The notes below the pieces were generated by a model that was given only the letters and a program-made list of their open reading frames with translations, searched no databases and was not told the origin of the DNA. This document shows positions 15,410-48,752 of a stretch of 64,000 nt of DNA, piece by piece. This stretch comes from an uncultured Oscillospiraceae bacterium (GTDB lineage: Bacteria; Bacillota; Clostridia; Acetivibrionales; DTU013): NCBI GenBank assembly GCA_964587755.1, contig CAZPMC010000006.1, forward strand, positions 5,488 through 69,487, in the 5' to 3' direction. Numbering within the stretch: position 1 is the first letter of the stretch; each line of letters opens with the position of its first letter. A program made the translations under genes and the position numbers.

Positions 15410-16765
15410 ATGAAAATTATTAAAAATGCAATGATCGTCGTACCTGACAAAGAAAAACGCTTAATCCGTGATGGATTTATCCGCATTGACGGCAATTTGA
15501 TTGCTGAGATTGACTCAATGGACAAGCTGACTCCTCAAAAGCTTGAAGGTGCAGAAGTCATCGACGCGAAGGGCAAAATTGCCATTCCAGGCTTTGTTTC
15601 CACCCATAGCCATTTGTACAGCGCTGTTGTACGCAGCTTACCTCACTCAGGCTATGATGATGTAGACTTCTCGTTTGTTTCCTGGATGGAGAGATTCTGG
15701 TTTGCAATGCTTGAAGACAAGGTTACCAGAGAGGATATTTATGCCGGCACATTGATTAACTGCATTGAAAACATAAAGCACGGTTATACAACAACATCTG
15801 ATACATGTGAAGGCTCCTACGCACTTCCCGGAGCATTGTTTGAAACCGGCAGGGCTGTTAAGGAATCGGGAATGCGCGGTGTACTTTCCTTTGAAACAAC
15901 AGGAAGAATCAGCGAAGAAAACGCTATGTTGGGACTCAAAGAGAATGTTGATTTTATTGAGCATTGCCGTAAGCATGAGACTGACGGACGTATAAGAGGT
16001 GTAGTAGGGGTACACACTACATATACCTGCTCAGGTGACCTGATTCAAAAATGCAAGGCAGAAGCTCAACGCCTTGGTGTGGGAATACAGATGCATCTTG
16101 CCGATGACCGCTGGCACAGCTTCCATTCAACTCTAAAGTATGGAAAACGCTGCCTGAAGTGGTTGGAAGATCTTGAATTCTTAGGACCCGACGTATTATT
16201 CTTCCACTGCAGCTATATGGATAACAGGCTTGATCCTGCTATTATGAAGCATTACGGCTGCAACATTTCGCACCAGCCTGTTTCCAATGCAAGCTTCGGT
16301 TTCTGGCCAAACATGGTTCCATTCATTGATGCAGGTGTAAATGTATCACTCGGAACTGATGGACAGACACAGTCCATGTTTGAAAATATGCGTGCTGCAC
16401 AGATGATACACAGAATCCGTTATGAAAATCTTGAGCTTCTTCCTGACGAGGAAATGTTTGAAATGGCAACAATAAACGGAGCAAAATCATTACATCTTGA
16501 AGATGAAATAGGTACTCTTGAGGTTGGTAAGAAGGCTGATATAGTACTGCTGAAAAATAACAGCCCGGTTCCTGTATTTGAGAACAATATTATGAACTTC
16601 ATTGTTACAGTAGCTGACAGTGCTCATGTGGATACAGTATTGATTGATGGAAGGATGGTAGTTAAGGGCGGCGAGTACTTACTGCTTGACGAGGAAGAAG
16701 TCAGGGCACGCTGCCAGGAGCAGGCTGTTGATTTCTGGAAGCGCAATGACTGGCCGACTCCATAA
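15410..16765 (+). CDS. amidohydrolase, SsnA-like (ATZ/TRZ chlorohydrolase/aminohydrolase family)
   Basis: 451 aa. Metal-binding STHSHLYS, SFETTGR...ENVDFIEH (compare E. coli SsnA CFETTDR...ENIRF), and a GTDG motif. Confidence 0.8.
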   Translation: MKIIKNAMIVVPDKEKRLIRDGFIRIDGNLIAEIDSMDKLTPQKLEGAEVIDAKGKIAIPGFVSTHSHLYSAVVRSLPHSGYDDVDFSFVSWMERFWFAMLEDKVTREDIYAGTLINCIENIKHGYTTTSDTCEGSYALPGALFETGRAVKESGMRGVLSFETTGRISEENAMLGLKENVDFIEHCRKHETDGRIRGVVGVHTTYTCSGDLIQKCKAEAQRLGVGIQMHLADDRWHSFHSTLKYGKRCLKWLEDLEFLGPDVLFFHCSYMDNRLDPAIMKHYGCNISHQPVSNASFGFWPNMVPFIDAGVNVSLGTDGQTQSMFENMRAAQMIHRIRYENLELLPDEEMFEMATINGAKSLHLEDEIGTLEVGKKADIVLLKNNSPVPVFENNIMNFIVTVADSAHVDTVLIDGRMVVKGGEYLLLDEEEVRARCQEQAVDFWKRNDWPTP

Positions 16766-18100: not shown

Positions 18101-19189
18101 ATGGCATTTAATGTTGATCTGTCTGTAGAAGTAGCAGGTGTAAAAATGAAAAACCCTCTGGTTCTTTCAGAAGGGCCATTGTCAGGAAGCAAGCGACTGA
18201 TTGAACGTGCCGCACAGCACAATATAGGAGCAATCGTAACAAAAAGTATCCAGCAGAAAGCGAATGTATCCGCAAACCCGTACATGATTGCTGCAAATCG
18301 CGGCTTGATTAATGCGGATTGGACTGATATCGGATTAGAAACATGGCTTGAAGAACTTAAGAAGATAGATATACCGATGCCGCTGATTACGAATATTGGA
18401 ACAAACAATGTCCCGCCAAAGCAGGCTGCCGAATGGGCAGGTATTCTGCAGGAGCATGGTGCGGCTATGGTCACATTCTCTGATTATGAGCCTGAAAATC
18501 TGGTTGATGCCGTAAGCTATGCACGAAAAGAAGTTGATGTACCGATTATGGTTAAGCTGCCTCCTTTTGTAAAGAATATTGCAGATTTGTGCAAACGCCT
18601 TGAAGCGGCAGGCGTAACCATGATAGCTGCAATGGACGCAGTCGGGCCTGCAATGGATATAGATATATCAAAACGCAAACCTATTCTCGGTAATGACGGT
18701 GCATTTGGTTATATGTCATCAGCTCCCATATTCCCGCTGACTCTTGCATATATTGCTGAAATCGCAGGAAGCGTTAGTGTACCTGTACTTGGTGTCGGAG
18801 GCGTTACAAGTGCAGCTGATGTAATTAAGCTGATAATGGCCGGTGCCACATGTGTTGGTATGGTAGGTACTCCTATTCTTAAAGGCCTTGGAATATTTGA
18901 CAAGATTGAAGCTGATCTTCGCAAATGGATGGCAGAAAACAACGTTAAGAACCTGGCAGAGATAAGAGGCTGTGCACAGCCGTATATACATCAGACTGAG
19001 AAATACGGATTGAAAGCCAAGGTCGATTATGACACATGTACTGCATGTGGTTTGTGCTTTAAATCATGCTATGCGGCTGCTTTGACACCAAACAGTGATA
19101 AAAAGCCTGTTGTTAACACCCAATACTGCTCAGGTTGCGGTGTTTGCCAGAGTGTATGCCCTGTTAAGGCTATTAATGTTAGAGAATGA
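18101..19189 (+). CDS. dihydroorotate/dihydropyrimidine dehydrogenase-like flavoprotein fused to a 2x[4Fe-4S] ferredoxin domain (PreA-like)
   Basis: DHOD-type TIM-barrel N-terminus (VAGVKMKNPLVLSEGP...VTKSI). The C-terminus carries CTACGLCFKSC and CSGCGVCQSVCP. Confidence 0.7.
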   Translation: MAFNVDLSVEVAGVKMKNPLVLSEGPLSGSKRLIERAAQHNIGAIVTKSIQQKANVSANPYMIAANRGLINADWTDIGLETWLEELKKIDIPMPLITNIGTNNVPPKQAAEWAGILQEHGAAMVTFSDYEPENLVDAVSYARKEVDVPIMVKLPPFVKNIADLCKRLEAAGVTMIAAMDAVGPAMDIDISKRKPILGNDGAFGYMSSAPIFPLTLAYIAEIAGSVSVPVLGVGGVTSAADVIKLIMAGATCVGMVGTPILKGLGIFDKIEADLRKWMAENNVKNLAEIRGCAQPYIHQTEKYGLKAKVDYDTCTACGLCFKSCYAAALTPNSDKKPVVNTQYCSGCGVCQSVCPVKAINVRE

Positions 19190-20393: not shown

Positions 20394-20422
20394 GGTGAAT
20401 CAAAGTTAAAGGGAGAATGTTT

Positions 20423-21838
20423 ATGGAGCTTTTAATTAAAAATGGAACGCTAATCACCGTTGATAATGAGAGAAGGGTTTTTAAAGGAGATATTGCCGTT
20501 GACAAAGGAAGGATCGTCCGCATAGGAGAAGACTTATCCGACATCAAGGCAGATAAGGTGATTGATGCTGATGGATGTGCTGTTATGCCCGGAATGATCA
20601 ACACCCACACACATATATATCAGGCTCTCATTGAAGGTATTGGCTACGATATGCATTTTGAACCCTGGAATTGGCGTTTTCTGTTTCCGGTTGTAAGCAG
20701 GATGACACCGGAGCATTCTTATGTGAGTGCGCAGGTGGCTGCTTTGGAGATGATAAAAAGCGGAACTACAACAGTATGCGACCACTGGTATATGCATACA
20801 TATTTTGAGAACGTACGCAATGTTGCGCAAGCTTTGGATCAAAGCGGAATGCGCTCCTGCATCGTATATGGTTTATTGGATCGTTCCTTTGCAGGTTCAG
20901 CCATTGACGACGAAAGCATGACAATGGTACACACCCGGGAGGATTTAATGGCTGATGCGGAAAAATTTGCAGCAAAATGGCATAGGACAAGACGCACCAC
21001 AGTTGCATTAGGAGTGGGAACAACGCAGGATGCTTCCCCAGAGCTTTTAAAAATGTCCCAGGAGTTTTGCCTTGCAAACGGTATGCAAAACAACTTCCAT
21101 GTTGCTGGCTGGAGCGAGCTTATTACAAACTGCTATAAACAATTTGGAATGCGTGATGTTGAGAACCTTGCGAGGCTCGGATATGTAGGACCAAACATGG
21201 TATATGTCCATGCCGTGTGGCTGACTCCCGAGGAGATAAAGATAATTGGGGATACGGATACAAAGGTAGCCCACTGCCCGGTTGCCAATTCGCAGCTGGC
21301 ATATGGTGTTTCACCTGTTAGCGAAATGTTGGCACGGGACGTTGCAGTCGGCTTGGGTACAGATGGTGGTGCAAGTTACACTTATGACATGTTTGAGGTG
21401 ATGCGTACAGCATCATATTTGCAAAAGCAGAAAAATCTATCAGCCGACTTTTTAACTGCTGAGCAGGCAATAGAGCTTTCCACAATTAACGGCGCCCGGG
21501 TGCTGAATATGCAGGACGAGATTGGTTCATTGGAAGCAGGTAAGAAGGCTGACATTATTATTGTAGATTTTAATAAACCACACCTGATTCCTGTAAACCG
21601 CTACACTCCCAAATTAGTGTACAGCGCAAACGGCGGTGATGTAAGGACCACCATAATCGACGGAAAGGTTGTTATGGAGGACTATGAGGTTAAGACACTT
21701 AATGAAAAAGAAATAATGAAGGATGCTATTCGCTGTGCTAAGGAACTTGTCAGCGGCGCATCAAATGATGATACAGAAAAATTACTAAATGCTCCGTGGG
21801 GACGCAAACGTCCTTATTGGAGAAGCAAGGAGGATTAA
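20423..21838 (+). CDS. amidohydrolase, ATZ/TRZ family (paralog 2)
   Basis: MPGMINTHTHIYQ, a GTDG motif and GSLEAGKKADIIIVD. GGGAG sits 7 nt upstream of ATG 20423. Confidence 0.8.
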   Translation: MELLIKNGTLITVDNERRVFKGDIAVDKGRIVRIGEDLSDIKADKVIDADGCAVMPGMINTHTHIYQALIEGIGYDMHFEPWNWRFLFPVVSRMTPEHSYVSAQVAALEMIKSGTTTVCDHWYMHTYFENVRNVAQALDQSGMRSCIVYGLLDRSFAGSAIDDESMTMVHTREDLMADAEKFAAKWHRTRRTTVALGVGTTQDASPELLKMSQEFCLANGMQNNFHVAGWSELITNCYKQFGMRDVENLARLGYVGPNMVYVHAVWLTPEEIKIIGDTDTKVAHCPVANSQLAYGVSPVSEMLARDVAVGLGTDGGASYTYDMFEVMRTASYLQKQKNLSADFLTAEQAIELSTINGARVLNMQDEIGSLEAGKKADIIIVDFNKPHLIPVNRYTPKLVYSANGGDVRTTIIDGKVVMEDYEVKTLNEKEIMKDAIRCAKELVSGASNDDTEKLLNAPWGRKRPYWRSKED

Positions 21839-21841
21839 GTT

Positions 21842-23200
21842 ATGGCTAAGCTTGAATTCCCAAAGGATTTTATTTGGGGCATCGGCAACGGTGCATATCA
21901 ATCCGAAGGTGGATACAATGAGGACGGAAGAGGCGAGACTATTTGGGACCGCTACTGTCACATACCCGGCCGGATTATTGACGGCGCCAGCGGTGATGTC
22001 ACATCGGATTTTTACCATAGGTATAAAGAGGACATTGCCCTGATGAAAAAGATGGGTATTCCGAACTTTCGCATGTCAATTTCCTGGGCGAGGATAATAC
22101 CTGACGGGAGAGGCGAAATAAATGAAAAGGGTATAGCCTTCTATCATTCTGTTTTGGATGAGCTGATAAAAAATGGTATCGAGCCCATGGTAAACCTTTA
22201 CATGTGGGATTTGCCACAGAAGCTGCAGGATATCGGAGGATGGGCAAATAGAGATGTGACAGATTACTTTGAAAGATATTGCCGGATTGTATTTAAGGAA
22301 TACGGCTCTAAGGTCAAGACCTGGCTTACATTTGATGAACCCTTCTGCTGTGCGTTTATAGGCAATTACCTGGGAACATACGCACCAGGGCTTACGGATT
22401 TCTCCACTGCTCTTTTGGTAAGCTACAATATGCTTCTTGCCCATGGCAAGGCTGTAAAAGCGTGCCATGAAATAATACCTGATGCAAAAATCGGTATAGC
22501 ACTAAACCTTTCAGACTGCAAAAGTGCAACTGACAAGAAGGAAGATATTGAAGCAGCAATTCGCGCAGACGGCTACCGTAACCGCTGGTTCCTGGATCCG
22601 ATTTACAAGGGAAGCTTCCCGCAGGACATGCTTGATTGGTACGAAAAACAGGGAGTAGTTATGCCAGAAATATTGCCGGAGGATTTGAAAATCATGTCCG
22701 AGCCACAGGATTTCCTGGGAATTAACTTCTATTCACCTCATTTCTACGTACATGACGAACAGGTCTGGCCAATAAAGCTGACTGGAGTTAAGGTAGGATA
22801 CCCGGTAAATTATATTAATTGGGAAATTGTGCCTGAGGCAATTTACAACATCCTCACCCGTGTTAAAAAAGATTACGGGGATATTGAGATAAAAATTACT
22901 GCCAACGGCAACTGTACTACGGATATTATCAATCGTGAGCACAAGCTTCTGGATGATGAGCGTATTGATTATATGTACAATCATCTTATACAGATAAATA
23001 AAGCAATTGAAGAAGGCATTCGTGTTACAGCGTATTATGCATTCTGCTTTACCGACAACCTTGAATGGACCCTTGGCTTTACTAAACGTTTCGGCCTTGT
23101 GTATGTTGATTTTAAGACTCAGGAGAGGATAGTCAAGGAAAGCGGTCACTGGTATTCTAAGGTAATAAGGGACAATGGCTTCGAGCTGGTTGACAAATAG
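21842..23200 (+). CDS. glycoside hydrolase family 1-like protein with a non-canonical active site
   Basis: Full-length GH1 fold (AYQSEGG, FRMSISWARIIPDG, NLEW, KRFGLVYVD). The TENG nucleophile motif reads ITANG (Ala354, GCC 22901-22903), NEP reads DEP (D165-E166), and YHWDLP reads YMWDLP (M121). Confidence 0.85.
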   Translation: MAKLEFPKDFIWGIGNGAYQSEGGYNEDGRGETIWDRYCHIPGRIIDGASGDVTSDFYHRYKEDIALMKKMGIPNFRMSISWARIIPDGRGEINEKGIAFYHSVLDELIKNGIEPMVNLYMWDLPQKLQDIGGWANRDVTDYFERYCRIVFKEYGSKVKTWLTFDEPFCCAFIGNYLGTYAPGLTDFSTALLVSYNMLLAHGKAVKACHEIIPDAKIGIALNLSDCKSATDKKEDIEAAIRADGYRNRWFLDPIYKGSFPQDMLDWYEKQGVVMPEILPEDLKIMSEPQDFLGINFYSPHFYVHDEQVWPIKLTGVKVGYPVNYINWEIVPEAIYNILTRVKKDYGDIEIKITANGNCTTDIINREHKLLDDERIDYMYNHLIQINKAIEEGIRVTAYYAFCFTDNLEWTLGFTKRFGLVYVDFKTQERIVKESGHWYSKVIRDNGFELVDK

Positions 23201-23263
23201 AATTTTGGAAGGCAATAGTTTTAAGCGATATAAATTTGGAATGATAGGAGATGGATAACTGCA

Positions 23264-24619
23264 ATGCGTGAATGTGATTTAATACTTGGAGGAAGCTACC
23301 TTCTCGCAATGGATGATAATGACACCCGAATCAGAAATGGTGGTGTGGCAATTAAAGATGGCAAGATTATTGCACTTGCGGAAATATCCGAGTTGAGAAA
23401 TCAGTATAAACCGAAAGAGGAAATCGTACACGAAAATGCAGTTATCCTCCCGGGCTTGATTGATGCTCATACCCATGAAACTTTAACAAGGGGCCTGCAT
23501 GAGGACCTCCCATTGATGCGGTGGTTGGAAGAGGTATGCTACCCCGTTGAGGCAAGCTATACACCGGAAGATATATATGCCGCTGCACTGATGACACAGA
23601 TGGAGCTTATACGCGGTGGAGTTACGACTTTTATTGATATATTCAGATATGCAGACCAAGCTATAAAGGTCATTGAAAAGTCCGGAATGAGAGCCATATT
23701 TACTCCCCAGTTTTTTGATGAGACTTCTGATACGCTGGAGAGTATTGATAAAACAGTGGATTTGATTGAGAAATATCATGGCAGCCAAAACGGCCGTGTC
23801 AGTGTCTGGTTTGGACCTCACGCACCTTATTCCTGCGGCCCCGAAAGCTATGCAAGGGCCGCTGAGCTTTCGAAAAAACTCGGTGTCGGAGTCCATACTC
23901 ATATGTGTGAGACAAAGGCAGAGGTTCAATTAATAAAAGAAAGATACGGAAAGGATCCTGTAGAATACCTCCATGAGGCAGGCGTTCTAGATGTTCCCTG
24001 TGTTTTGGCCCACTCTATCTACCTGACAGATGAAAATATTTCACTGTTGGCAAAGAAGCGGGATACTGCAGGACTTGTATATAACCCCATAAGCAATATG
24101 AAAATAGCCGATGGAATAGCAAGAATACCTGAGCTTCTTTCGGCGGGCTGTACGGTCGGCTTGGGCACTGATTCCAATTTATCTAACAATGGATTGGATA
24201 TGTTTGCAGAAATGCGCATAGGAAGTTACCTGCAGAAGGTGTTTAATGATGATGCGACCATAATGCCATGCTTTGAAATGCTAAAGCTGGCAACACGCGG
24301 CAGTGCAAAGGTTCTAAAAATGGAAGACAAAATAGGAAGCTTAGAACCCGGAAAATGTGCTGATGTTATTGCTGTAAGCTTCAGTAAACCGCATATGTGG
24401 CCTATTTATTATGAGAATCCAAGTAATATTGTTGAGCAGATTGTCTACTCGGCACGCGCTTCAGATGTTATAACAACTATAGTTGATGGTAAGGTTTTAA
24501 TGGATAATTATGTTATCCGGACACTTGATGAGAAAGGTGCTTTTGAGTTTATACAAAAAAGGGCAATGGATTTATATGCACGCAGCTTTCCAGACAGGGT
24601 AAGCAGTGAGAAAATATAA
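23264..24619 (+). CDS. amidohydrolase, MtaD/nucleoside-nucleobase deaminase-like (paralog 3)
   Basis: LPGLIDAHTHE..RGLHEDLPLMRWLEE, HTHMCE, a GTDS motif and GSLEPGKCADVIAV. Confidence 0.8.
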   Translation: MRECDLILGGSYLLAMDDNDTRIRNGGVAIKDGKIIALAEISELRNQYKPKEEIVHENAVILPGLIDAHTHETLTRGLHEDLPLMRWLEEVCYPVEASYTPEDIYAAALMTQMELIRGGVTTFIDIFRYADQAIKVIEKSGMRAIFTPQFFDETSDTLESIDKTVDLIEKYHGSQNGRVSVWFGPHAPYSCGPESYARAAELSKKLGVGVHTHMCETKAEVQLIKERYGKDPVEYLHEAGVLDVPCVLAHSIYLTDENISLLAKKRDTAGLVYNPISNMKIADGIARIPELLSAGCTVGLGTDSNLSNNGLDMFAEMRIGSYLQKVFNDDATIMPCFEMLKLATRGSAKVLKMEDKIGSLEPGKCADVIAVSFSKPHMWPIYYENPSNIVEQIVYSARASDVITTIVDGKVLMDNYVIRTLDEKGAFEFIQKRAMDLYARSFPDRVSSEKI

Positions 24620-27458: not shown

Positions 27459-28655
27459 ATGGACAAAAAATTTTCATTGGCACCAATACAGAGGAAGGCT
27501 ACTGATAACAACAAGTTTCTCAGCGTAGAGCTGGGTGAACAGGTTGTAAATTATCACAAAAGCTTTCCTGCCTATGAGCAAACACCTTTAACCGATTTAC
27601 CAGAGCTTGCAAGGGAAATCGGAATCGAAAAGCTATATGTTAAGGATGAATCTTACCGATTCGGGCTTAATGCATTTAAGGTATTGGGCGGTAGCTACAG
27701 TATAGGTGCTTATCTCGCAAAAAGGTTACAGCTTGCTCCAAATCAGATAAACTACGGGACCCTCTGCTCTGATGCTGTCCGTGAGAAGCTGGGCGTACTA
27801 ACATTTGTCACTGCGACCGATGGGAATCACGGTCGCGGTGTGGCATGGACCGCACGGGAGCTCGGACACAAATCAGTGGTGTACATGCCTCATGGCAGCT
27901 CAGATGAGAGATTAGAAAATATAAGGGCAGAGGGCGCCGAAGCTGAGATACTTGACATGAATTATGATGAGGCTGTCAGGCTGGCAAATAAAATGGGTAA
28001 AGAGCATGGATGGATTATGGTACAGGATACGGCATGGGAAGGCTATGAGGAGATACCCCGCTGGATTATGCAGGGGTATTTGACGATGGCATATGAGGCT
28101 GCCACGCAACTGAAAGACCAAGTCCCGACTCATGTATTCTTGCAGGCAGGTGTCGGTTCATTGGCAGGGGCTGTTGCAGGTTACCTGGCTAATTACTATG
28201 GCAATAACAAGCCACAGATTGTTGTAGTTGAGCCGAATAAGGCAAACTGCATTTACAGGACTGCTGCTGCAGCTGACGATAAGCTGCACTTTGTAACAGG
28301 CAAGCTGGATACACTAATGGCAGGTTTAGCTTGTGGAGAGCCAAACCGGATAGGTTGGGAAATATTACAGGAGACTGCAGAATATGCAATATCGTGTCCT
28401 GATTGGGTAGCTGCTAAGGGAATGAGAATTTTGGCCGCTCCTATCGGAAACGACAGTAAAGTGATTTCAGGTGAAAGCGGAGCGGTTACCACAGGACTGG
28501 TCGCCCAAATCATGACAGACCCTGATTTAGCATGGATGAAGGATGAGCTGAAAATTGACAGCACGTCAAAAATCCTTTGTTTCAGTACTGAGGGGGATAC
28601 AGACAAGGAAAATTACCGCCGTATCATTTGGGACGGTGCTTACCCTGGGCTTTAA
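27459..28655 (+). CDS. dpaL: diaminopropionate ammonia-lyase (PLP-dependent), YgeX-like
   Basis: 398 aa. KDESYRFGLNAFKVLGG matches the YgeX/DpaL lysine motif region, and TATDGNHGRGVAW is present. Confidence 0.85.
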   Translation: MDKKFSLAPIQRKATDNNKFLSVELGEQVVNYHKSFPAYEQTPLTDLPELAREIGIEKLYVKDESYRFGLNAFKVLGGSYSIGAYLAKRLQLAPNQINYGTLCSDAVREKLGVLTFVTATDGNHGRGVAWTARELGHKSVVYMPHGSSDERLENIRAEGAEAEILDMNYDEAVRLANKMGKEHGWIMVQDTAWEGYEEIPRWIMQGYLTMAYEAATQLKDQVPTHVFLQAGVGSLAGAVAGYLANYYGNNKPQIVVVEPNKANCIYRTAAAADDKLHFVTGKLDTLMAGLACGEPNRIGWEILQETAEYAISCPDWVAAKGMRILAAPIGNDSKVISGESGAVTTGLVAQIMTDPDLAWMKDELKIDSTSKILCFSTEGDTDKENYRRIIWDGAYPGL

Positions 28656-28801
28656 TACAGAACATGAAAAGGTAGTTAAGAGTTAATCAAGAAAATGCAA
28701 TAACTGTATTAAAATGTTGACAATTATTAAAAAAAGAGATACTTTAGTAATATTATATAATATTTGTATTAAAGGGAAAATATTGCGGGAAGGTAAAAAT
28801 A

Positions 28802-29566
28802 ATGATGAGGTTAGACAGACTAAACAGTATGGAAGAGTATGTGCATGAATGCGGTAGTGTCTCTTTAAGCGACCTGGCTAAGAAATTCAATATTTCGATT
28901 AATACTGTTCGCCGGGATGTGGAGGAATTATTGGAACGGGGCACAATGAAAAAGGTGTACGGAGGCGTTGCATCTAACATAACTACACAAGTTATGCCTA
29001 TCAGTGACCGGGAAAACACTAATATTGCTGCAAAGCAGAGTATAGGGAAAATGGTTGCAAAGCTCATTGATAATGATTCAACGGTATTCATTGACTCGGG
29101 CTCAACACCTGCACAGGTTATTCAACACTTAGGCCAGAAAAACAATATAACTGTCATCACTAATAGTCTAAAAGCTATGTATGAGAGCTCAAAATATCCT
29201 AACATTAGGCTTTTAGGAATAGGAGGCTTGTACAATACCTTCAAAGGCTCTTTTGTCGGTTCCAGCACATTAGAAAACATTTCGAAACTAAATTTCGATG
29301 TAGTTCTTCTTGGTTCCACTTGTATTTCCTTAGAAAATGGGCTGACAATAAACTCATTTTTCGAAGTTGATATTAAAAGATGGCTTGTTCAGCATAACAA
29401 ACGTACTATATTAATGGCTGACACAAGCAAATATGATAAGACGGCTCTTTACTCCTTCAGTGATTTTAGCGATGTAAAGATTGTTGCTGCTGAGAAGCCT
29501 TTGCCCCCAAGGTACATGAAAGAGATTTCTGAGCGCGGCATGACCTTCCTTTGCCCGGATAATTAA
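28802..29566 (+). CDS. DeoR-family transcriptional regulator
   Basis: N-terminal HTH (VSLSDLAKKFNISINTVRRDVEELLERG) and a C-terminal DeoR sugar-phosphate-binding-type domain. Confidence 0.88.
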   Translation: MMRLDRLNSMEEYVHECGSVSLSDLAKKFNISINTVRRDVEELLERGTMKKVYGGVASNITTQVMPISDRENTNIAAKQSIGKMVAKLIDNDSTVFIDSGSTPAQVIQHLGQKNNITVITNSLKAMYESSKYPNIRLLGIGGLYNTFKGSFVGSSTLENISKLNFDVVLLGSTCISLENGLTINSFFEVDIKRWLVQHNKRTILMADTSKYDKTALYSFSDFSDVKIVAAEKPLPPRYMKEISERGMTFLCPDN

Positions 29567-29589
29567 ATATGAAAGGCAGGAGTACTCAT

Positions 29590-30489
29590 ATGAAAACTAT
29601 TATAGATGAAGTCACCGTTACACAGGTGATTTCAAAATTCATCACTTATTTTGCCAAGGTACTTCCTGATGATATAATAGCAAAGCTTCAAGAATTAAGA
29701 ACGCTGGAAACAGATGAATTGCCGGCGCTTATATATGATACTATGATCAAAAATCAGGAGCTGGCACAAAAGCTCGACAGGCCAAGCTGCCAGGATACAG
29801 GCGTAATACAGTTCTTTCCGAAGGCAGGTACAGCGTTTCCGCTGATTGACAGGTTACCTGATATATTTAAAAATGCAGTTTTAAGTGCGACGGTAAATGC
29901 ACCGTTGCGTCATAACGCAGTTGAAACATTCGACGAGAAAAATACAGGAAACAACACAGGCTACCGTGTGCCTACTATTGAATGGGAGATTGTACCCAAT
30001 TCTGATGAGCTTATTTTAGATATTTATATGGCAGGAGGAGGCTGTACTCTTCCAGGAAAAGCAATGGTGCTTATGCCGGGTGCCGGCTATGAAGGGGTAG
30101 TTGATTTTGTGTTGGATGTAATAACTTCTTATGGCATTAATGCATGTCCGCCCCTTGTTGTAGGAGTTGGAGTGGCAACCTCTGTTGAAACTGCTGCAAT
30201 GTTATCAAAAAAAGCAATTCTCAGACCTCTTGGTTCGAGAAATCCAAACGAACGGGCAGCGATGCTGGAAGCCCTTCTTGAGGAAGGAATCAATTCAATT
30301 GGTATTGGACCTCAGGGATTGTCCGGCAGGAAATCTGTTTTGGGCGTACATATCGAAAATGCAGCACGCCATCCATCAACCATAGGTGTAGCAGTAAATG
30401 TAGGCTGCTGGTCTCATAGGCGCGGACGCATCATTTTTAAGGCAGATGGCATATATGAAATTGTTTCGCATAAGGGGGTGCGTCTATGA
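29590..30489 (+). CDS. Fe-S hydro-lyase alpha subunit (class I fumarase / L(+)-tartrate dehydratase TtdA-like)
   Basis: The SCQDTGV motif is typical of the class I fumarate/tartrate hydro-lyase N-terminal domain. AGGAG sits 7 nt upstream of ATG 29590. Confidence 0.75.
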
Positions 30490-31094
30490 AGCATGTATTG
30501 ACTACACCGATCAAGGATACTGACATAGAGAAGCTTAAAATCGGGGACGTCATTTACCTGACCGGTCATATTGTGACCTGTCGTGATGTAGGACATCGCC
30601 GCCTAATTGAAGAAAAAAGGGCATTACCTGTAGATTTAGCAAACGGGGCAATCTTTCATGCAGGCCCGATTGTCAAAAAGCATGAAGACGGCCGGTATTC
30701 TATGGTTTCTATCGGACCCACTACAAGCATGAGGATGGAAAAGTTTGAGAAGGATTTTATTGAACAGACGGGCGTTAAGCTTATTGTGGGCAAGGGTGGA
30801 ATGGGTGAGAAAACCGTATCAGGATGCAAACAGTTTAAGGCAATTCACTGTGTATTTCCGGCAGGATGTGCAGTACTTGCAGCAACACAGGTGGAAGAGG
30901 TTGAAAGAGTTGAGTGGACAGAATTGGGAATGCCCGAAAGCCTTTGGGTAATGAGGGTAAAGGAACTAGGGCCCCTTATAGTTTCAATCGATATACACGG
31001 AAATAATATCTTTGAAAATAACAAAAAAATATTCAATGAAAGAAAAAAGAATGTTATAGAAAAGATACATAAAAATGTTGGCTTCATAAAATAG
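30486..31094 (+). CDS. Fe-S hydro-lyase beta subunit (TtdB / fumarase C-terminal domain-like)
   Basis: 202 aa with [13 protein letters not shown] overlap with the alpha subunit gene. Confidence 0.75.
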
Positions 31095-31118
31095 ATAAAG
31101 TAATTAAGGAGGCAGGAA

Positions 31119-31778
31119 ATGGAGCTTAATCGTTATTTAGATCATTCAGTACTAATTCCCAATCTAACTAAGGAAGAGGCGCGGGAAGGCATACAAATAG
31201 GGTTGGATCATAACGTCAGATCTGTTTGTGTACGTCCCTGTGATATTGACATGGCTGTGAGCATGTGCAAGGGAACAGATACAGCGGTATGCTGCGTTTT
31301 GGATTTTCCTCATGGCACAGGCGGGGCTTTAGCAAAAGAGGCTCTTGCTAAGATCTATGTAGATCAGGGCGTTGAGGAGATTGATATGGTTATGGATTAC
31401 TCCGCAGCCCGCTCGGATAGGTGGGACGTTGTGGAGGAGGGAATAAAACGGGTTGTTCAAGTGGCGCGCCCGAAAAATGTAATCGTTAAGGTTATATTCG
31501 AAACAAGCGAGCTTTCCAAAGAGCAAATTGAAAAGGCAACGGCTGCATCAATTTCTGCAGGTGCAGATTTTATAAAGAGTTCGACAGGCTTTGCCGGAAA
31601 TGTCACCGAAGAAGCTGTAAGATACATGATGGATGCAGCGGCAGGAAAAATCCAGGTCAAAGTCTCAGGCGGGATACCCAATTATCAGATGGCGAAGAAG
31701 TTTATCGAAATGGGTGCAACACGCCTGGGTGTAAAATACAGTGTGACTCCTGTATGGATGAGTGAATGCAGCCGCTAA
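31119..31778 (+). CDS. deoC: deoxyribose-phosphate aldolase (DeoC family)
   Basis: 219 aa. LDHSVL, VCVRP, VLDFPHG, and the Schiff-base region ADFIKSSTGF. Confidence 0.85.
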   Translation: MELNRYLDHSVLIPNLTKEEAREGIQIGLDHNVRSVCVRPCDIDMAVSMCKGTDTAVCCVLDFPHGTGGALAKEALAKIYVDQGVEEIDMVMDYSAARSDRWDVVEEGIKRVVQVARPKNVIVKVIFETSELSKEQIEKATAASISAGADFIKSSTGFAGNVTEEAVRYMMDAAAGKIQVKVSGGIPNYQMAKKFIEMGATRLGVKYSVTPVWMSECSR

Positions 31779-31857
31779 GAGCTGACATCTTCATGCAACG
31801 GAGTAATGCCGGAAACAGGCTGTAAGAAATAAGTCTCGCTGAAATGTAGCAGCCAAG

Positions 31858-31911
31858 AGTGCTTAGAAAAAACCGGCAGTGCCATTTGTTCCGGTTATGT
31901 TTCTAAGCACT
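31858..31911. terminator. long nested hairpin between convergent deoC and the chemoreceptor gene
   Basis: Perfect 12-bp outer stem AGTGCTTAGAAA/TTTCTAAGCACT, plus an inner AACCGG/CCGGTT stem. Confidence 0.6.
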
Positions 31912-31939
31912 TACTGTACTGCCCCAACCCTTGCCAATT

Positions 31940-33658
31940 TCACAGTTTAAATTGATGAATTATCTGCTTTAGCTGGTCTGCCATATCTGACAGAATGTTT
32001 GCTGAGGATGATATTTCTTCAAGGCCGGCTGTTTGCTCTTCTGCAGCCGAAGCGACATTTTCACTGTCATTGGAAGATTGTATGGCAATATCCTTCATTT
32101 CCTGGATCATAGAGTCGATTCTTTGCATTGCATCAGCCATTATTTCTATCTCAGTGGAAATATCTTTAATCTGCTGGTCTACATTTACGCTTGTTTTGAT
32201 GATACGGCCGAACGCTTCTTTAGCGTCTTCAGCCTTTTGCAATCCGTCATTTACGCTGATAACACCTTCATTCATTTTAGCGGCTACTTCTTTGGAAAAC
32301 TGTTTTACTTCGTTGAGTATAGTTGTTATCTCTTTCGTTGCAAGAGCTGTCTCTTCAGCCAACTTACGGACTTCTTCGGCAACAACGGAAAAACCTTTTC
32401 CATGCTCGCCTGCTCTTGCTGCTTCAATAGCCGCATTTAGAGCAAGCAGATTTGTCTGCGAAGCAATATTGTTAATTGCAGTTACGATACTCTCAATCTC
32501 TTTTGATCTTGAGTCCAGTAATCCGGATACATCTTGGGTTGACAGCAATTTCCCTTCTATATCTTTAATTTTCTCCAACATAGTTATCATTCTTTCATTT
32601 CCGTTGGCAGCGGCCTGAGTGGCTTCCCTGGAGGATTCTAGCACTGATTGGGCCTGTTCTTTCATATACAAGTTCTTTTTGTAAAAATCATTTACTGTTG
32701 AAGTGGTTTGATACGAATGCTCAGTCTGTTTTGCCGCTCCATGGGCGACCGATTGAATAGAGGTGGCAATAAGCTCAAGTGCCTTACTGCTTTGCTCTAC
32801 ATTTGCTTTCAAAAGTTCTGCAGAAAGGCTCACATCATCACTGCTGGTACTAATCCTTCCAACAAGGTCTCTCAGGTTTTCACACATTTTGTTAAAAGAG
32901 GCAGCTAAGACAGATAGCTCATCCTTAGATTTCACACTGATGTTCTCAACATTTAGTTCGCCCTTTGATATCTTATGAGCATTTGAAGCTAATTTCGAAA
33001 TAGTTCTGGCTATATTTCTGGAGAACAAAACAGACCATAATATACTTAAAGTCGTAAATGCAAGAGTTAAAACAATTAGAATAGTGCCGGTGAGCTTTGT
33101 TTTTTTGTTTAGTTCCTCTTTTATTATTTCATGTTGGGATAATTCACTGTTGATAAAATTACTGACGGTATTGCGTAAGAAAATCTGGGTTGACTTTTGC
33201 ATTGCCCCAAGATCCATGAGCCCGCTTACATCATTACCCTCATCTGCACCCTTTTGTATCAGCTCCCAATTCTCTAATGCTGTTTGATAATGTTTATCAA
33301 GGTACTTTAATGCTTGCTTGCCTGAATCACTTTCTACATTCAGCGAAAGTTCTTTAATATTGTTACCGATTAACATAAACCCGTCGGATATTTCCTGTTT
33401 AGCATTATAATCATTTTTCAAAATGAATTTATCCATTTTGTTGGAAATCATATCTAATGATGCCACAGATATTGCATTTAGCAAAATTGTAGTTTCCATC
33501 ATTGTATCCTGCTTTGAAATAATCCCGCTCAAAGCTGTATATGATATTATACACATTGAACTAAGAATATAAGCTATTAATACAAAAACCAAAATAAGTC
33601 TTGCTTTTAATGATTTGCGAACGTTAAGTTTCCCGGCTAAAAGTTTTATTATATTCAT
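31940..33658 (-). CDS. methyl-accepting chemotaxis protein
   Basis: 572 aa. Two TM segments flank an extracellular domain of about 150 aa, followed by a HAMP domain. Contains the highly conserved MA hairpin [35 protein letters not shown]. Confidence 0.92.
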
Positions 33659-38022: not shown

Positions 38023-39573
38023 ATGAATAATATCATTGAAATGAGAAATATCGTCAAGAAATTTGGCGACTTTGTAGCTAACGATAATATTAATCTTGAA
38101 GTCAGAGAAGGAGAGATACATGCCTTGCTCGGTGAAAACGGAGCAGGTAAAAGTACTCTTATGAATGTACTGTATGGACTATATTCTCCCGATGGAGGGG
38201 AAATATATTTCAAGGGAGAAAAGGTCGAAATTAAAGGACCCTGTGATGCCATCAAATTGAATATCGGTATGGTTCATCAACACTTCATGTTAATACCTGT
38301 ATTTACCGTAGCCGAGAACCTGATACTTGGGGCTGAACCGGTTAAAGGCATATCCCTCGACATCAAGAAGGCAATATCACAAATCGAAACAGTTTCAAAG
38401 GAGTACGGCCTTGCTGTTGACCCTAATGCGCTGATTTCCAATATATCTGTTGGAATGCAGCAAAGAGTTGAAATTCTTAAGGTTTTGCTCCGCGGAGCTA
38501 AGGTTTTAATTTTTGACGAGCCGACAGCTGTTTTGACACCACAAGAAATAACTGAATTCTTTGGGATATGCAGAACCCTTCAGGCTCGTGGACATACGAT
38601 TATTATAATCACACACAAGCTTAAGGAAATAAAACAGATAAGTGACAGGGTTACTGTTATAAGAAAAGGTAAGAATATCGGGACTGTTGACACAAACACT
38701 GTCAGTGAACAGGACTTAGCCGAAATGATGGTTGGCAGAAAGGTTATACTGTGTGCAAATAAGAGTGAACAGGAATGTGGTTCACCGGTTCTTGAAATAG
38801 AGGATCTGCACGCAAATAATTACAGAGGCCTGCCAGCACTGCAAGGCTTGTCCTTGAAGGTATGTGCCGGCGAAATAGTGGGAATCGCAGGCGTTGAAGG
38901 CAACGGGCAGACAGAGCTGGCCCTTGTATTGAAAAAGCTTATAAACAAGACTAAAGGAACAATAAAGTTCTGCGGTAAGGAATATACAAAGAAAACTACA
39001 ACCCAGGGACTTATCGATGCAGGCCTTGCTCATATCCCTGAGGATAGGCAGAAACACGGCTTGATTTTGAACTTTTCCATAAAAGAAAATCTTATACTTG
39101 GATGCGAAGACAAGTCAGAATTTACAAAAAGCGTGTTTTTAGATGAGAAAAAAATCAGTTCTTACGGAGATGTTTTAATAGAAGAGTATGATATTAGATG
39201 CAGGGGAGCTGACATGCTGGCAGGAGGATTGTCGGGAGGAAATCAGCAAAAAGTCATACTGGCTCGTGAAATCTCGAGAAATCCTAAGCTGTTAATCGTA
39301 TCGCAGCCGACAAGAGGGCTTGATGTCGGCGCTATAGAGTATGTACATGCCCAGCTTCTTGAACAAAGGAAAAAGGGTTGTGCAATATTGCTGATATCCT
39401 ATGAGCTGGACGAAATAATGTCCTTAAGTGATAGAATACTGACAATTTACAACGGGAAAATTGTTTCAGAACACAGATGCTGCGATGTGACAAGAGAAAC
39501 GATCGGACTAGCAATGACAGGCATAACACAACACAAACAAGTAAACGATACGTCCCAAGAAGGAGTACAATGA
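38023..39573 (+). CDS. ABC transporter ATP-binding protein with duplicated ABC domains (nucleoside/sugar type)
   Basis: 516 aa. Walker A GENGAGKST, the first signature region, a second domain with LSGGNQQK, and Walker B. Confidence 0.9.
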   Translation: MNNIIEMRNIVKKFGDFVANDNINLEVREGEIHALLGENGAGKSTLMNVLYGLYSPDGGEIYFKGEKVEIKGPCDAIKLNIGMVHQHFMLIPVFTVAENLILGAEPVKGISLDIKKAISQIETVSKEYGLAVDPNALISNISVGMQQRVEILKVLLRGAKVLIFDEPTAVLTPQEITEFFGICRTLQARGHTIIIITHKLKEIKQISDRVTVIRKGKNIGTVDTNTVSEQDLAEMMVGRKVILCANKSEQECGSPVLEIEDLHANNYRGLPALQGLSLKVCAGEIVGIAGVEGNGQTELALVLKKLINKTKGTIKFCGKEYTKKTTTQGLIDAGLAHIPEDRQKHGLILNFSIKENLILGCEDKSEFTKSVFLDEKKISSYGDVLIEEYDIRCRGADMLAGGLSGGNQQKVILAREISRNPKLLIVSQPTRGLDVGAIEYVHAQLLEQRKKGCAILLISYELDEIMSLSDRILTIYNGKIVSEHRCCDVTRETIGLAMTGITQHKQVNDTSQEGVQ

Positions 39574-41628: not shown

Positions 41629-41652
41629 CCAGAATAGTTGGGAGTAAAATTA

Positions 41653-43020
41653 ATGCTAGAAAATAAGCAATCTATTTTAATAAAAAACGCTCTTGTAGTA
41701 ACGATGAATCCCCATGATGAAATTTTCCGTGGAAGCATTTACATTGTGGACGGCAGGATTAAAGAAGTCGGTACTAAAAGAGAGACGGCAGACAAGGTGA
41801 TTGATGCCGGCGGCAGAATTGTAATGCCGGGATTTATTCAGACTCACATTCACCTGTGTCAGGTATTGTTCAGGGGATTAGCAGACGACATGGATGTTGT
41901 TGATTGGCTAAAGCATAGAATATGGCCCTTTGAATCAGCACATAATGAGGACTCAATAAATGCGTCGGCGTATCTAGGTATTGCAGAGCTTATTGCCGGC
42001 GGTACAACAACGGCATTAACAATGGAAACCACTCGGTACACCGACGGGGTTTTTTCCGCCATTGAGGAATCAGGATTCCGTGGGTTTTGCGGTAATGCCA
42101 TGATGGATGTGGTAGAGCCGGGAACAATGATGAAAGGACTAAGCACTCAGGAAAGTTTTGATGAGAGCAAGCGCCTTTTCAATACATGGCATGGAAAGGG
42201 AAACGGACGGGTCAATTATACAGTTATGCCCCGGGGAGCCAGAAATTGTTCTCCTGAGCTTGTTAAGCGTTCACATGCTTTTGCCCGGGAAAACGGACTG
42301 TTGCTGCACACCCATGTTTCTGAAAACGGGCCTTTGTCAGAAAGACTTAAAAAAGAAACGGGCTTAGGAGACATTGAGCTTCTCGAAAGTCAGGGCGTAG
42401 CTGACGAAAAACTAGTTGTTGCCCATGCCATATGGCTAAATGAAAATGATGTGGATATTATCAAGCGCAGGGGGGTAAAGATAGCCCATTGCCCTTCTGC
42501 CAATATGAAGCTCAGCTCAGGATTTTGTAAGGTTCCTGAAATGCTTGATATGGGGATTGACATTTCACTTGGCGCTGATGGAGCGCCATGCAACAATAAT
42601 CTGGATATGTTCAATGAAATGCGTCTAGCCAGCCTGATTCACAAGCCAAGATGCGGGCCTACATCAATGAAGGCATATGAGGTATTGAAGATGGCGACAA
42701 TGGGAGGCGCAAAATGCCTCGGAATTGAAAATGAAGTCGGAAGTCTTGAGACAGGCAAAAAGGCTGATATCATCATTATCAATACAGATGAGCTACACTG
42801 CAGTCCTATGGCAGGTGTTCCGGTAGAATCACAAATCGTGTACTCAATCAAGAGCTCAGATGTTGACACTACCATAATTGATGGTGTTGTTTTATATGAA
42901 AACAAAAAGTTTACGATAATGAACAAGAAAAAAATACTTGAGACTGCCGGAAGAGAAATTGAGAGGCTGTTAGACAGGGTGCCATTCGGCAAAGAGCTGA
43001 TAGAGTCGTTGCCGTATTAG
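41653..43020 (+). CDS. amidohydrolase, MtaD/guanine-deaminase-like (paralog 4)
   Basis: MPGFIQTHIHLCQ..RGLADDMDVVDWLKHRIWP, HTHVSE, GADG and GSLETGKKADIIII. ATG 41653 has a TGGGAG RBS. Confidence 0.8.
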   Translation: MLENKQSILIKNALVVTMNPHDEIFRGSIYIVDGRIKEVGTKRETADKVIDAGGRIVMPGFIQTHIHLCQVLFRGLADDMDVVDWLKHRIWPFESAHNEDSINASAYLGIAELIAGGTTTALTMETTRYTDGVFSAIEESGFRGFCGNAMMDVVEPGTMMKGLSTQESFDESKRLFNTWHGKGNGRVNYTVMPRGARNCSPELVKRSHAFARENGLLLHTHVSENGPLSERLKKETGLGDIELLESQGVADEKLVVAHAIWLNENDVDIIKRRGVKIAHCPSANMKLSSGFCKVPEMLDMGIDISLGADGAPCNNNLDMFNEMRLASLIHKPRCGPTSMKAYEVLKMATMGGAKCLGIENEVGSLETGKKADIIIINTDELHCSPMAGVPVESQIVYSIKSSDVDTTIIDGVVLYENKKFTIMNKKKILETAGREIERLLDRVPFGKELIESLPY

Positions 43021-43046
43021 ACGGATTAAAGGAGATGTATTATTTT

Positions 43047-48750: not shown

Positions 48751-48752
48751 AG

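What the first reader, a model, noticed from the sequence alone, without database searches (positions are those of the whole stretch)
28674..31778. DeoR regulator, two-subunit class I Fe-S hydro-lyase and DeoC aldolase as one tightly coupled operon
A DeoR-family regulator is followed by TtdA/TtdB-like (class I fumarase family) alpha and beta subunit genes, with a 23-nt gap before alpha and an ATGA overlap between alpha and beta. A DeoC-family aldolase gene comes 24 nt later.

I do not know this combination from a described pathway: an oxygen-sensitive hydroxy-acid dehydratase paired with a deoxyribose-phosphate-type aldolase. It could define a dehydratase/aldolase route for a sugar acid or a ring-opened base fragment produced by the flanking enzymes.

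A tandem AGTTAAG-AGTTAAT repeat (28674-28687) and a TTGACA box (28717-28722) lie upstream.
Basis: partly seen in the sequence, partly recalled or inferred. Interest (0 to 1): 0.55.

Follow-up and report, generated by a model that had tools for sequence, protein, structure and literature searches.

The report
Tartrate dehydratase and DERA share operon
The four-gene operon is real, but its enzymes are orthologues of two known enzymes, L-tartrate dehydratase and deoxyribose-phosphate aldolase, that most likely work side by side inside a purine/nucleoside breakdown island and not as a new two-step pathway.

Summary
DeoR (28802-29566), TtdA (29590-30489), TtdB (30486-31094, ATGA overlap) and DeoC (31119-31778) form one compact + strand unit, with a promoter conserved in the closest relative and a hairpin after deoC.

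- The hydro-lyase is not a fumarase of unknown substrate. It is 58% (alpha) and 68% (beta) identical to E. coli L(+)-tartrate dehydratase and passes both NCBIfam equivalog cut-offs. It shows no clade-specific change at conserved positions.
- DeoC passes the DERA equivalog cut-off and keeps the catalytic Asp and both Lys.
- The unit lies in a Clostridial-type variant of the reductive uric-acid (2,8-dioxopurine) gene cluster, extended by nucleoside-uptake and sugar-phosphate genes.
- The ttdAB-deoC adjacency is conserved only in one monophyletic island clade (six lineages), under strong purifying selection.
- Two sister loci keep the whole island with deoR-deoC adjacent and no ttdAB, and trees favour a secondary loss. 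One locus has ttdAB-deoC without deoR.
- The nearest outside TtdAB relatives sit with TRAP transporters and no DeoC. None of 93 other DeoC loci carries a TtdAB orthologue.

So the two enzymes can each occur without the other, and a serial dehydratase-aldolase route is unlikely. Why a transporter-less ttdAB is kept here remains unexplained.

The parts
28674..28687 (+). Tandem heptamer AGTTAAG-AGTTAAT, upstream of the promoter
   Evidence: Present as stated. Not significant by shuffling. Only the second copy (AGTTAATCA) is conserved in L025. Operator role untested.
28717..28745 (+). Probable sigma-70-type promoter of the operon: -35 TTGACA (28717-28722), 17-nt spacer, -10-like TACTTT (28740-28745)
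   Evidence: Both elements and their spacing are conserved in the orthologous L025 intergenic region. Promoter function is inferred, not shown.
28802..29566 (+). DeoR-family transcriptional regulator, 254 aa (HTH_DeoR + DeoRC sensor domain)
   Evidence: Pfam PF08220 and PF00455. No NCBIfam equivalog cut-off is passed, so the effector is unknown. Present in 6 of 7 island loci and absent in L107.
29590..30489 (+). L(+)-tartrate dehydratase alpha subunit orthologue (TtdA), 299 aa, Fe-S hydro-lyase
   Evidence: NF006084 scores 501 bits against a cut-off of 365. 58% identity to E. coli TtdA over 285 aa with no gaps. C67, C186 and C273 and the TtdA-type GGGCTLPG motif are invariant in 115 family members.
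30486..31094 (+). L(+)-tartrate dehydratase beta subunit orthologue (TtdB), 202 aa; its start overlaps the alpha stop (ATGA)
   Evidence: NF006082 scores 366 bits against a cut-off of 264. 68% identity to E. coli TtdB over the full length.
31119..31778 (+). DeoC-family class I aldolase, 219 aa, most likely deoxyribose-5-phosphate aldolase, with a clade-specific phosphate-pocket variant
   Evidence: TIGR00126 scores 175 bits against a cut-off of 117. The best solved structures are all DERAs (1mzh, 129 bits). D89, K124 and K153 are invariant. The motif is SGGIP + GVKY in place of SGGIR + GVG.
31858..31911 (.). Long hairpin between the convergent deoC and MCP genes; probable operon end or bidirectional terminator
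   Evidence: A 13 + 9 bp nested stem appears in both the MFE and the centroid fold. There is no clear U-tract on the + strand, and the pattern scan did not call it.

Best explanation
This is a four-gene operon embedded in a Clostridial-type purine/nucleoside fermentation island. The island is a variant of the reductive uric-acid (2,8-dioxopurine) cluster, extended with a Bmp-type nucleoside ABC importer, RpiB, split transketolase, type II GAPDH and PGK.

- A DeoR-family repressor, probably sensing a sugar phosphate, is transcribed from a TTGACA/TACTTT promoter together with three enzyme genes.
- TtdAB is an oxygen-labile [4Fe-4S] L(+)-tartrate dehydratase orthologue that makes oxaloacetate.
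- DeoC is a Schiff-base aldolase of the DERA type. It splits deoxyribose-5-phosphate from imported deoxynucleosides into glyceraldehyde-3-phosphate and acetaldehyde.

The two enzymes act in parallel as feeder reactions into central metabolism, not in series. A ttdAB cassette without a transporter, derived from TRAP-linked tartrate loci, entered the island lineage once. In most loci it sits between deoR and deoC. Most descendants kept it under purifying selection and one sublineage lost it.

Shown: orthology, operon layout, conservation pattern, separability of the genes.
Inferred: substrates, DeoR control, and the rationale. The rationale is that extra oxidisable C4/C3 carbon supplies pyruvate and reductant for the electron-consuming urate reduction.
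For: Orthology:
- Alpha and beta pass the NCBIfam equivalog cut-offs.
- They are 58% and 68% identical to E. coli TtdA and TtdB.
- Cluster-ligand and substrate-loop motifs are invariant.
- Only 3 clade-specific substitutions fall at conserved columns, and 2 of them equal the E. coli residue.
- DeoC passes the DERA equivalog and keeps the catalytic residues.

Context:
- Island genes match the XdhD, UacX, SsnA, HyuA, YgeY and YgeX roles (papers).
- In unrelated bacteria DeoC commonly sits beside RpiB or Bmp ABC importers.

Conservation:
- The unit, or its ttdAB-deoC core, is kept in the window, L025, L002/L003, L004 and L107.
- Contig-length matches between the TtdA and DeoC hit lists point to more lineages.
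- dN/dS is 0.04-0.05 with saturated dS, the same as XDH and GH1.
- Island TtdA sequences are monophyletic.

Separability:
- L023 and L109 have deoR-deoC with no ttdAB in an otherwise syntenic island.
- Their position nested among ttdAB-bearing lineages has 90% bootstrap support in the outgroup-rooted DeoC tree, and {L107, L023, L109} has 100% support.
- Outside TtdAB relatives are TRAP-linked without DeoC.
- 0 of 93 other DeoC loci carry a TtdAB orthologue.
Against: - No dicarboxylate or tartrate transporter, malic enzyme or oxaloacetate decarboxylase is encoded in the 64-kb window. E. coli and the TRAP-linked loci always pair ttdAB with a transporter. The source of tartrate is therefore unexplained and could be internal.
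- In L107 ttdA starts at the XDH stop. ttdAB-deoC are therefore co-expressed with the purine genes, which hints at a closer link than chance co-location.
- The island DeoC clade has relocated the basic residue of the phosphate pocket, so strict DERA specificity is not assured.
- No enzyme activity, transcript or regulator binding was tested.
Confidence: 0.55

Rival explanations
1. Serial pathway. The Fe-S hydro-lyase dehydrates a hydroxy acid produced by the flanking enzymes, either a sugar acid or a ring-opened base fragment. The DeoC-type aldolase then cleaves the product.
For: - The tight ttdAB-deoC adjacency (24 nt) has survived saturated synonymous divergence and rearrangements around it: deoR lost in L107, and the DAP ammonia-lyase gene (ygeX-like) or a RidA-family gene inserted upstream in other loci.
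- No transporter accompanies ttdAB.
- The DeoC pocket is remodelled.
Against: - DeoC with the same remodelled pocket persists without TtdAB in L023 and L109.
- TtdAB shows no active-site divergence from E. coli or TRAP-linked enzymes.
- Its expected product, oxaloacetate, is not a DERA-type substrate (established DERA chemistry, my own knowledge).
- The published urate pathway is complete without either enzyme.
Confidence: 0.1
2. The TtdAB orthologue acts on L-tartrate, or a close analogue, made inside the cell by the island's sugar-oxidising genes: three SDRs, a GhrB-like 2-hydroxyacid dehydrogenase, an IolO-like epimerase and a split transketolase. The route would resemble the 5-ketogluconate to tartrate route known from plants and Gluconobacter. 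The operon would then drain that product to oxaloacetate.
For: - ttdAB has no transporter.
- The window holds SDRs at 43035, 43861 and 49746, a GhrB-like gene at 44600, an IolO-like gene at 34175 and a split transketolase at 47926-49709.
- In L004 deoC is followed directly by transketolase, GAPDH-II, PGK and malic enzyme.
- GH1 is strictly conserved in the island.
Against: - This is purely combinatorial. No island enzyme reaches an equivalog cut-off for any step of such a route.
- The L023/L109 lineage drops ttdAB, while L023, the longer locus, keeps the island genes through the first SDR and L109 keeps it through RpiB.
- Transketolase, GAPDH and PGK are explained more simply as pentose-phosphate harvesting.
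Confidence: 0.1
3. In these organisms the enzyme serves another C4-dicarboxylate reaction, such as fumarate/malate, D- or meso-tartrate or mesaconate. For example, it could be the cell's fumarase feeding malic enzyme.
For: - Class I family members are known to be promiscuous (my own knowledge of FumA/FumB).
- E. bolteae carries two TtdAB-like pairs side by side (70% and 48% identity to the window's TtdA), which implies diverged specificities within the family.
- L004 has malic enzyme in the same gene string.
Against: - The TtdA-specific GGGCTLPG loop replaces the fumarase G-A/G-G-S-E-N loop and is invariant.
- Scores against the fumarase equivalog models are below their cut-offs: 234 against 276 for alpha and 203 against 269 for beta.
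- Identity to fumarases is only about 30%.
Confidence: 0.12
4. ttdAB is a functionless passenger, left by an old insertion and merely carried along with the operon.
For: It is dispensable in one sublineage. It has no transporter nearby.
Against: dN/dS of 0.04-0.05 across saturated synonymous divergence, intact ribosome-binding sites, translational coupling and invariant catalytic motifs.
Confidence: 0.03

Closest known systems
E. coli ttdR-ttdA-ttdB-ttdT (L-tartrate fermentation locus)
   Same: Two-subunit [4Fe-4S] hydro-lyase with an overlapping alpha stop and beta start. 58% and 68% identity, the same Cys ligands and the same substrate-loop motif.
   Different: The regulator is DeoR-type, not LysR-type TtdR. 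There is no TtdT antiporter or any other dicarboxylate carrier. The genes are embedded in a purine/nucleoside island and followed by deoC.
TRAP-linked ttdAB loci of Clostridia and relatives (L005, L108, E. bolteae L007)
   Same: These are the nearest sequence relatives outside the island clade (70-73% alpha identity), with the same alpha-beta overlap.
   Different: They carry GntR- or AraC-type regulators and DctPQM transporters, and no DeoC. The island clade lost or never took the transporter.
deo operons / nucleoside utilisation operons (E. coli deoCABD with DeoR; deoC-bmp-ABC operons in many bacteria)
   Same: A DERA-type aldolase under a DeoR-family regulator, close to a Bmp/PnrA nucleoside ABC importer and RpiB.
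   Different: No nucleoside phosphorylase or phosphopentomutase is seen in the window. The DeoC phosphate pocket is altered. ttdAB is interposed.
Reductive uric-acid / 2,8-dioxopurine degradation cluster (bioRxiv 10.1101/2025.05.19.654654; 10.1101/2025.04.24.650524)
   Same: The surrounding island has counterparts of XdhD (fused, without YgfM), PydA-like UacX, SsnA-like amidohydrolases, a HyuA-like hydantoinase, YgeY and YgeX.
   Different: The published clusters are not reported to contain tartrate dehydratase, an aldolase, DeoR, GH1 or nucleoside transport genes.

Membership tests
L(+)-tartrate dehydratase TtdAB (class I fumarase superfamily) | Separate alpha (Fumerase) and beta (Fumerase_C) subunits scoring above the curated equivalog cut-offs | tested here: met
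   NF006084 scores 501 against a cut-off of 365; NF006082 scores 366 against 264. The fumarase equivalog models score below their cut-offs.
L(+)-tartrate dehydratase TtdAB (class I fumarase superfamily) | Three Cys ligands of the [4Fe-4S] cluster and the conserved substrate residues (CQD, R of PLRHN, TT/R/K of beta) | tested here: met
   C67, C186, C273, Q68, D69 and R107 are invariant. The beta motifs GPTTSMRME and VGKGGMG are identical to E. coli.
L(+)-tartrate dehydratase TtdAB (class I fumarase superfamily) | High full-length similarity to the biochemically characterised E. coli enzyme | tested here: met
   58% (alpha) and 68% (beta) identity; the alpha alignment has no gaps and the beta alignment has a single one-residue gap.
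L(+)-tartrate dehydratase TtdAB (class I fumarase superfamily) | Genomic association with a tartrate/dicarboxylate transporter | tested here: not met
   None in the 64-kb window. This is a contextual feature, not a defining enzymatic one, and the rest of the genome was not available.
L(+)-tartrate dehydratase TtdAB (class I fumarase superfamily) | Stereospecific dehydration of L-tartrate to oxaloacetate | not testable with these tools
   Needs an anaerobic enzyme assay.
Deoxyribose-5-phosphate aldolase (DERA, DeoC) | Schiff-base Lys plus the Lys/Asp proton relay (E. coli K167, K201, D102) | tested here: met
   K124 (VKVIFET), K153 (DFIKSSTGF) and D89 (EIDMVM) are invariant in 18 clade members and align to DERA structures.
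Deoxyribose-5-phosphate aldolase (DERA, DeoC) | Score above the curated equivalog cut-off | tested here: met
   TIGR00126 scores 175 against a cut-off of 117.
Deoxyribose-5-phosphate aldolase (DERA, DeoC) | Canonical phosphate pocket (SGGIR loop and G-T/A-S-S loop) | tested here: inconclusive
   The glycines are kept, but Arg is replaced by P/L/V and a Lys/Arg appears in the last loop (GVKY) in 16 of 16 clade members. 98 of 105 nearest homologues have SGG[IV]R. The phosphate is bound largely by backbone amides (my own knowledge), so the effect is unknown.
DeoR-family repressor | N-terminal HTH_DeoR plus C-terminal DeoRC sensor domain | tested here: met
   PF08220 at 54 bits and PF00455 at 146 bits. 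No equivalog is assigned, so the effector is unknown.
Reductive uric-acid (2,8-dioxopurine) gene cluster | Co-location of SsnA, an XdhD homologue, a YgfK or UacX reductase, HyuA, YgeY and YgeX | tested here: inconclusive
   All roles have family-level counterparts in the window. YgeY and YgeX pass equivalog cut-offs. The SsnA-like, XDH-like and hydantoinase-like proteins score below theirs.

The most novel reading that the evidence does not exclude
The transporter-less TtdAB, and/or the island DeoC with its relocated pocket lysine, act on an intermediate generated inside the island. Candidates are tartrate or a tartrate-like diacid from the glycoside/sugar-oxidising genes, or a non-canonical deoxy-sugar phosphate. 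This would define an undescribed carbon branch of anaerobic purine-nucleoside or N-glycoside fermentation.
Probability: 0.15. Interest if true: 0.6.

Novelty: new variant of a known kind. Interest (0 to 1): 0.3.

Why it matters
The anaerobic urate (2,8-dioxopurine) pathway was worked out only in 2025. This island shows that some Clostridia-like anaerobes bolt extra modules onto it: nucleoside uptake, a DERA-type aldolase, a sugar-phosphate to ATP module, a GH1 enzyme and a tartrate dehydratase. If ttdAB simply feeds tartrate carbon and reductant into urate reduction, the finding is a modest note on operon mosaicism. If its substrate is made internally, it would reveal a new branch of anaerobic nucleoside catabolism. 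Either way, the result cautions against reading tight adjacency alone as evidence of consecutive reactions.

Tried and rejected
- Housekeeping fumarase: rejected. Scores are below the fumarase equivalog cut-offs, identity is about 30%, and the substrate loop is TtdA-type.
- General fumarase-DeoC association: L011 has DeoC (61% identity) next to a class I fumarase. The genes are convergent and sit among pst/phoU/phoBR housekeeping genes, so this is coincidence.
- Operator prediction for DeoR: neither the AGTTAAG/AGTTAAT tandem nor a TGTATTAAA triplet (3 of 4 window hits lie within 125 bp) is conserved in L025. A k-mer search across five orthologous upstream regions gave only AT-rich noise.
- Genome-collection scan with DeoC returned only 12 loci, the best at 61% identity, so the lineage was not found among the species representatives. 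The metagenome scan with the DeoC alignment used generic DERA patterns and returned no island member, so it served only as a negative control.
- Rfam scan of 27-36 kb: no riboswitch or leader.
- Literature searches for the enzyme pair, and for tartrate dehydratase with xanthine dehydrogenase: nothing relevant.
- Organism identification through cluster look-up: no names returned.
Full report
**1. Observation**

ORF listing and direct reading of 28500-32000 confirm four co-directional genes:
- DeoR, 28802-29566.
- The alpha subunit, 29590-30489. The mechanical ORF starts at 29569. The ATG at 29590 has an AGGCAGGAG ribosome-binding site and gives the 299 aa typical of homologues.
- The beta subunit, 30486-31094, with an ATGA stop/start overlap.
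- DeoC, 31119-31778.

Pfam gives HTH_DeoR + DeoRC, Fumerase, Fumerase_C and DeoC.

The AGTTAAG-AGTTAAT repeat and the TTGACA box are at the stated coordinates. The repeat is not beyond chance, and only its second copy is conserved in the closest orthologous locus. TTGACA and a downstream ATACTTT are conserved there with the same spacing. A long hairpin at 31858-31911 lies between deoC and the convergent MCP gene. No Rfam element is present.

**2. What the proteins are**

Hydro-lyase:
- NCBIfam places alpha and beta above the equivalog cut-offs for L(+)-tartrate dehydratase (501 against 365; 366 against 264). They fall below the cut-offs of the fumarase models.
- Against E. coli K-12 TtdA and TtdB (fetched) they are 58% and 68% identical, without gaps in alpha and with a single one-residue gap in beta.
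- The only solved relative of the alpha subunit above noise is a two-subunit fumarase alpha chain, at 149 bits.
- In an alignment of 115 family members, the cluster cysteines (C67, C186, C273), the CQDTG and PLRHN motifs and the TtdA-type GGGCTLPG loop are invariant, including in E. coli. In the fumarase alignment this loop reads GAGSEN.

DeoC:
- It passes the DERA equivalog (175 against 117).
- All its best solved-structure matches are DERAs.
- It keeps the Asp and both Lys of the catalytic machinery.

DeoR passes no equivalog model, so its effector is unknown.

**3. Context in the window**

From about 15.4 to 51 kb the window is one catabolic island:
- An SsnA-like amidohydrolase and two M20 hydrolases, one of which passes the YgeY equivalog.
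- A PydA/PreA-like Fe-S flavoreductase.
- Two TRZ/ATZ amidohydrolases flanking a GH1 glycosidase.
- A fused 2Fe-2S/molybdopterin XDH-like protein.
- Diaminopropionate ammonia-lyase (YgeX).
- The operon described here.
- An MCP, RpiB and an IolO-like TIM-barrel enzyme on the other strand.
- A hydantoinase-like amidohydrolase.
- A Bmp/PnrA nucleoside-type ABC importer.
- A protein passing the 5'-deoxyadenosine deaminase equivalog.
- SDRs, a GhrB-like dehydrogenase, type II GAPDH, PGK, a split transketolase and MobA.

Two 2025 preprints describe the reductive uric-acid (2,8-dioxopurine) pathway: XdhD, then YgfK or the PydA-like UacX, then SsnA, HyuA, YgeW/UacY, YgeY and YgeX, ending in pyruvate. 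The island has a counterpart for each role, in the Clostridial arrangement: XdhD without YgfM, and a UacX-type reductase. Neither paper mentions tartrate, an aldolase, a glucosidase, DeoR or nucleosides. The base-degrading pathway therefore needs neither TtdAB nor DeoC.

**4. Conservation**

| Locus | Similarity to window | Arrangement after XDH |
|---|---|---|
| L025 | TtdA 90% | YgeX-DeoR-TtdA-TtdB-DeoC, as in the window |
| L002/L003 | TtdA 84% | DeoR-TtdAB-DeoC |
| L004 | TtdA 77% | RidA-DeoR-TtdAB-DeoC, then PALP, transketolase, GAPDH-II, PGK, malic enzyme |
| L107 | TtdA 78% | TtdAB-DeoC, no DeoR; ttdA starts at the XDH stop |
| L023, L109 | DeoC 66% (L023) / 68% (L109) | DeoR-DeoC directly adjacent, no ttdAB |

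- All these loci follow the same amidohydrolase-GH1-amidohydrolase-XDH block. L023 is syntenic with the window through RpiB, the TIM-barrel enzyme, the hydantoinase, the Bmp ABC importer and the next amidohydrolase. L109 is shorter and ends at the TIM-barrel gene after RpiB.
- Contig-length matches between the TtdA and DeoC hit lists suggest at least three more lineages with both genes on one contig.
- Island TtdA sequences (at least 76.6% identity) are monophyletic in a tree rooted on E. coli. Only three substitutions fall at columns that are at least 90% conserved elsewhere, and two of these equal the E. coli residue.
- The closest outside relatives (70-73% identity) sit with GntR- or AraC-type regulators and DctPQM TRAP transporters, without DeoC.
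- Of 93 non-island DeoC loci, none has a TtdAB orthologue or a DeoR homologue nearby. The single fumarase neighbour, in L011, is convergent and sits in a housekeeping context.

**5. Gain or loss**

- A concatenated XDH + GH1 + amidohydrolase tree groups L107 with L023/L109 at 100% bootstrap.
- A DeoC tree with five outgroups attaches the root next to the window/L025 pair. It nests L023/L109 among ttdAB-bearing lineages at 90% bootstrap.
- The most parsimonious history is one insertion of ttdAB in the island ancestor, followed by one loss in L023/L109. DeoR was lost separately in L107.
- Between the window and L025, synonymous sites are saturated (dS above 1.2). dN/dS is 0.048 for TtdA, 0.037 for TtdB and 0.036 for DeoC, the same as XDH and GH1.
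- ttdAB is therefore a selected, functional resident, not a decaying passenger.

**6. Mechanism**

Shown: the orthology, the compact operon, long-term co-residence, and the fact that each enzyme gene occurs without the other in the closest relatives.

Inferred:
- DeoC handles the deoxyribose-5-phosphate part of imported deoxynucleosides. Its product G3P enters the island's GAPDH-II/PGK module. In unrelated bacteria DeoC often sits beside RpiB or Bmp ABC importers.
- TtdAB converts L-tartrate to oxaloacetate, in parallel with DeoC.
- DeoR controls the operon in response to a sugar phosphate.

A possible rationale rests on my own redox bookkeeping from the pathway. Urate reduction to diaminopropionate consumes four electrons, while its pyruvate yields only two. 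Extra oxidisable substrates feeding pyruvate would therefore help. This is speculation.

**7. What does not fit**

- No dicarboxylate transporter, malic enzyme or oxaloacetate decarboxylase is in the window, so the origin of the tartrate is open.
- In L107 ttdAB-deoC are fused to the XDH operon.
- All 16 island-clade DeoC proteins have lost the Arg of the SGGIR loop and gained a Lys/Arg in the last loop (GVKY). 98 of the 105 nearest homologues keep SGG[IV]R. The swap is independent of ttdAB presence.

These points keep alive a minority reading in which one or both enzymes act on an island-derived metabolite.

**8. Verdict**

The unit is a new variant of known systems, a ttdAB cassette and a DERA gene under a DeoR regulator inside a uricolytic/nucleoside island. 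Interest is 0.3. The most novel reading has a probability of about 0.15.

Noticed in passing
window 20417-24619 (also L002, L004, L023, L025, L107, L109): A GH1 'beta-glucosidase' (it passes TIGR03356) is strictly conserved between two TRZ/ATZ-family amidohydrolases, immediately upstream of the XdhD-like gene, in all seven island loci. A glycosidase has no role in the published 2,8-dioxopurine pathway. It may point to an N-heterocycle glycoside or nucleoside substrate.
   Followed up: partly
window 31119-31778 and P0121-P0135: The island DeoC clade has relocated the basic residue of the DERA phosphate pocket: SGGIR becomes SGG[IV][P/L/V], and GVG becomes GV[K/R]Y. This holds in 16 of 16 members, against 98 of 105 nearest homologues that keep the Arg. 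It is independent of ttdAB presence.
   Followed up: partly
window 45657-49709; L004 11502-16864: An archaeal-type (type II) GAPDH, PGK and a split transketolase belong to the island. In L004 they follow deoC directly and are followed by malic enzyme. This suggests a dedicated sugar-phosphate to ATP module.
   Followed up: no
window 28651-28773: TGTATTAAA occurs three times within 125 bp around the operon promoter (one copy inverted, two direct copies 60 nt apart). These are 3 of only 4 occurrences in the window. The motif is not conserved in L025.
   Followed up: yes
window 41638-43020: This amidohydrolase passes the NCBIfam equivalog for 5'-deoxyadenosine deaminase (545 bits against a cut-off of 522). 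It sits directly after the Bmp-type ABC importer, consistent with nucleoside rather than free-base uptake.
   Followed up: no
L007 6467-13050 (Enterocloster bolteae): Two TtdAB-like pairs sit in tandem (48% and 70% alpha identity to the window). They follow a TRAP transporter and precede DHDPS-like and citrate-lyase-like genes. This suggests diverged substrate specificities within the TtdAB family.
   Followed up: no
window 29651-29678: A near-consensus promoter-like site (TTGCCA, 16 nt, TG-TATAAT; 11 of 12 matches) lies inside the 5' part of ttdA. It is probably chance, since the total number of promoter-like sites in the region equals the shuffle expectation.
   Followed up: no
window 16686-16765, 19095-19189, 24606-24619, 39477-39573: The mechanical ORF starts (TTG/GVTG) overlap the preceding genes by 14-97 nt. 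Orthologues in L002 and L023 are shorter (YgeY 395-396 aa against 432 aa here), so the true starts are probably further downstream.
   Followed up: no
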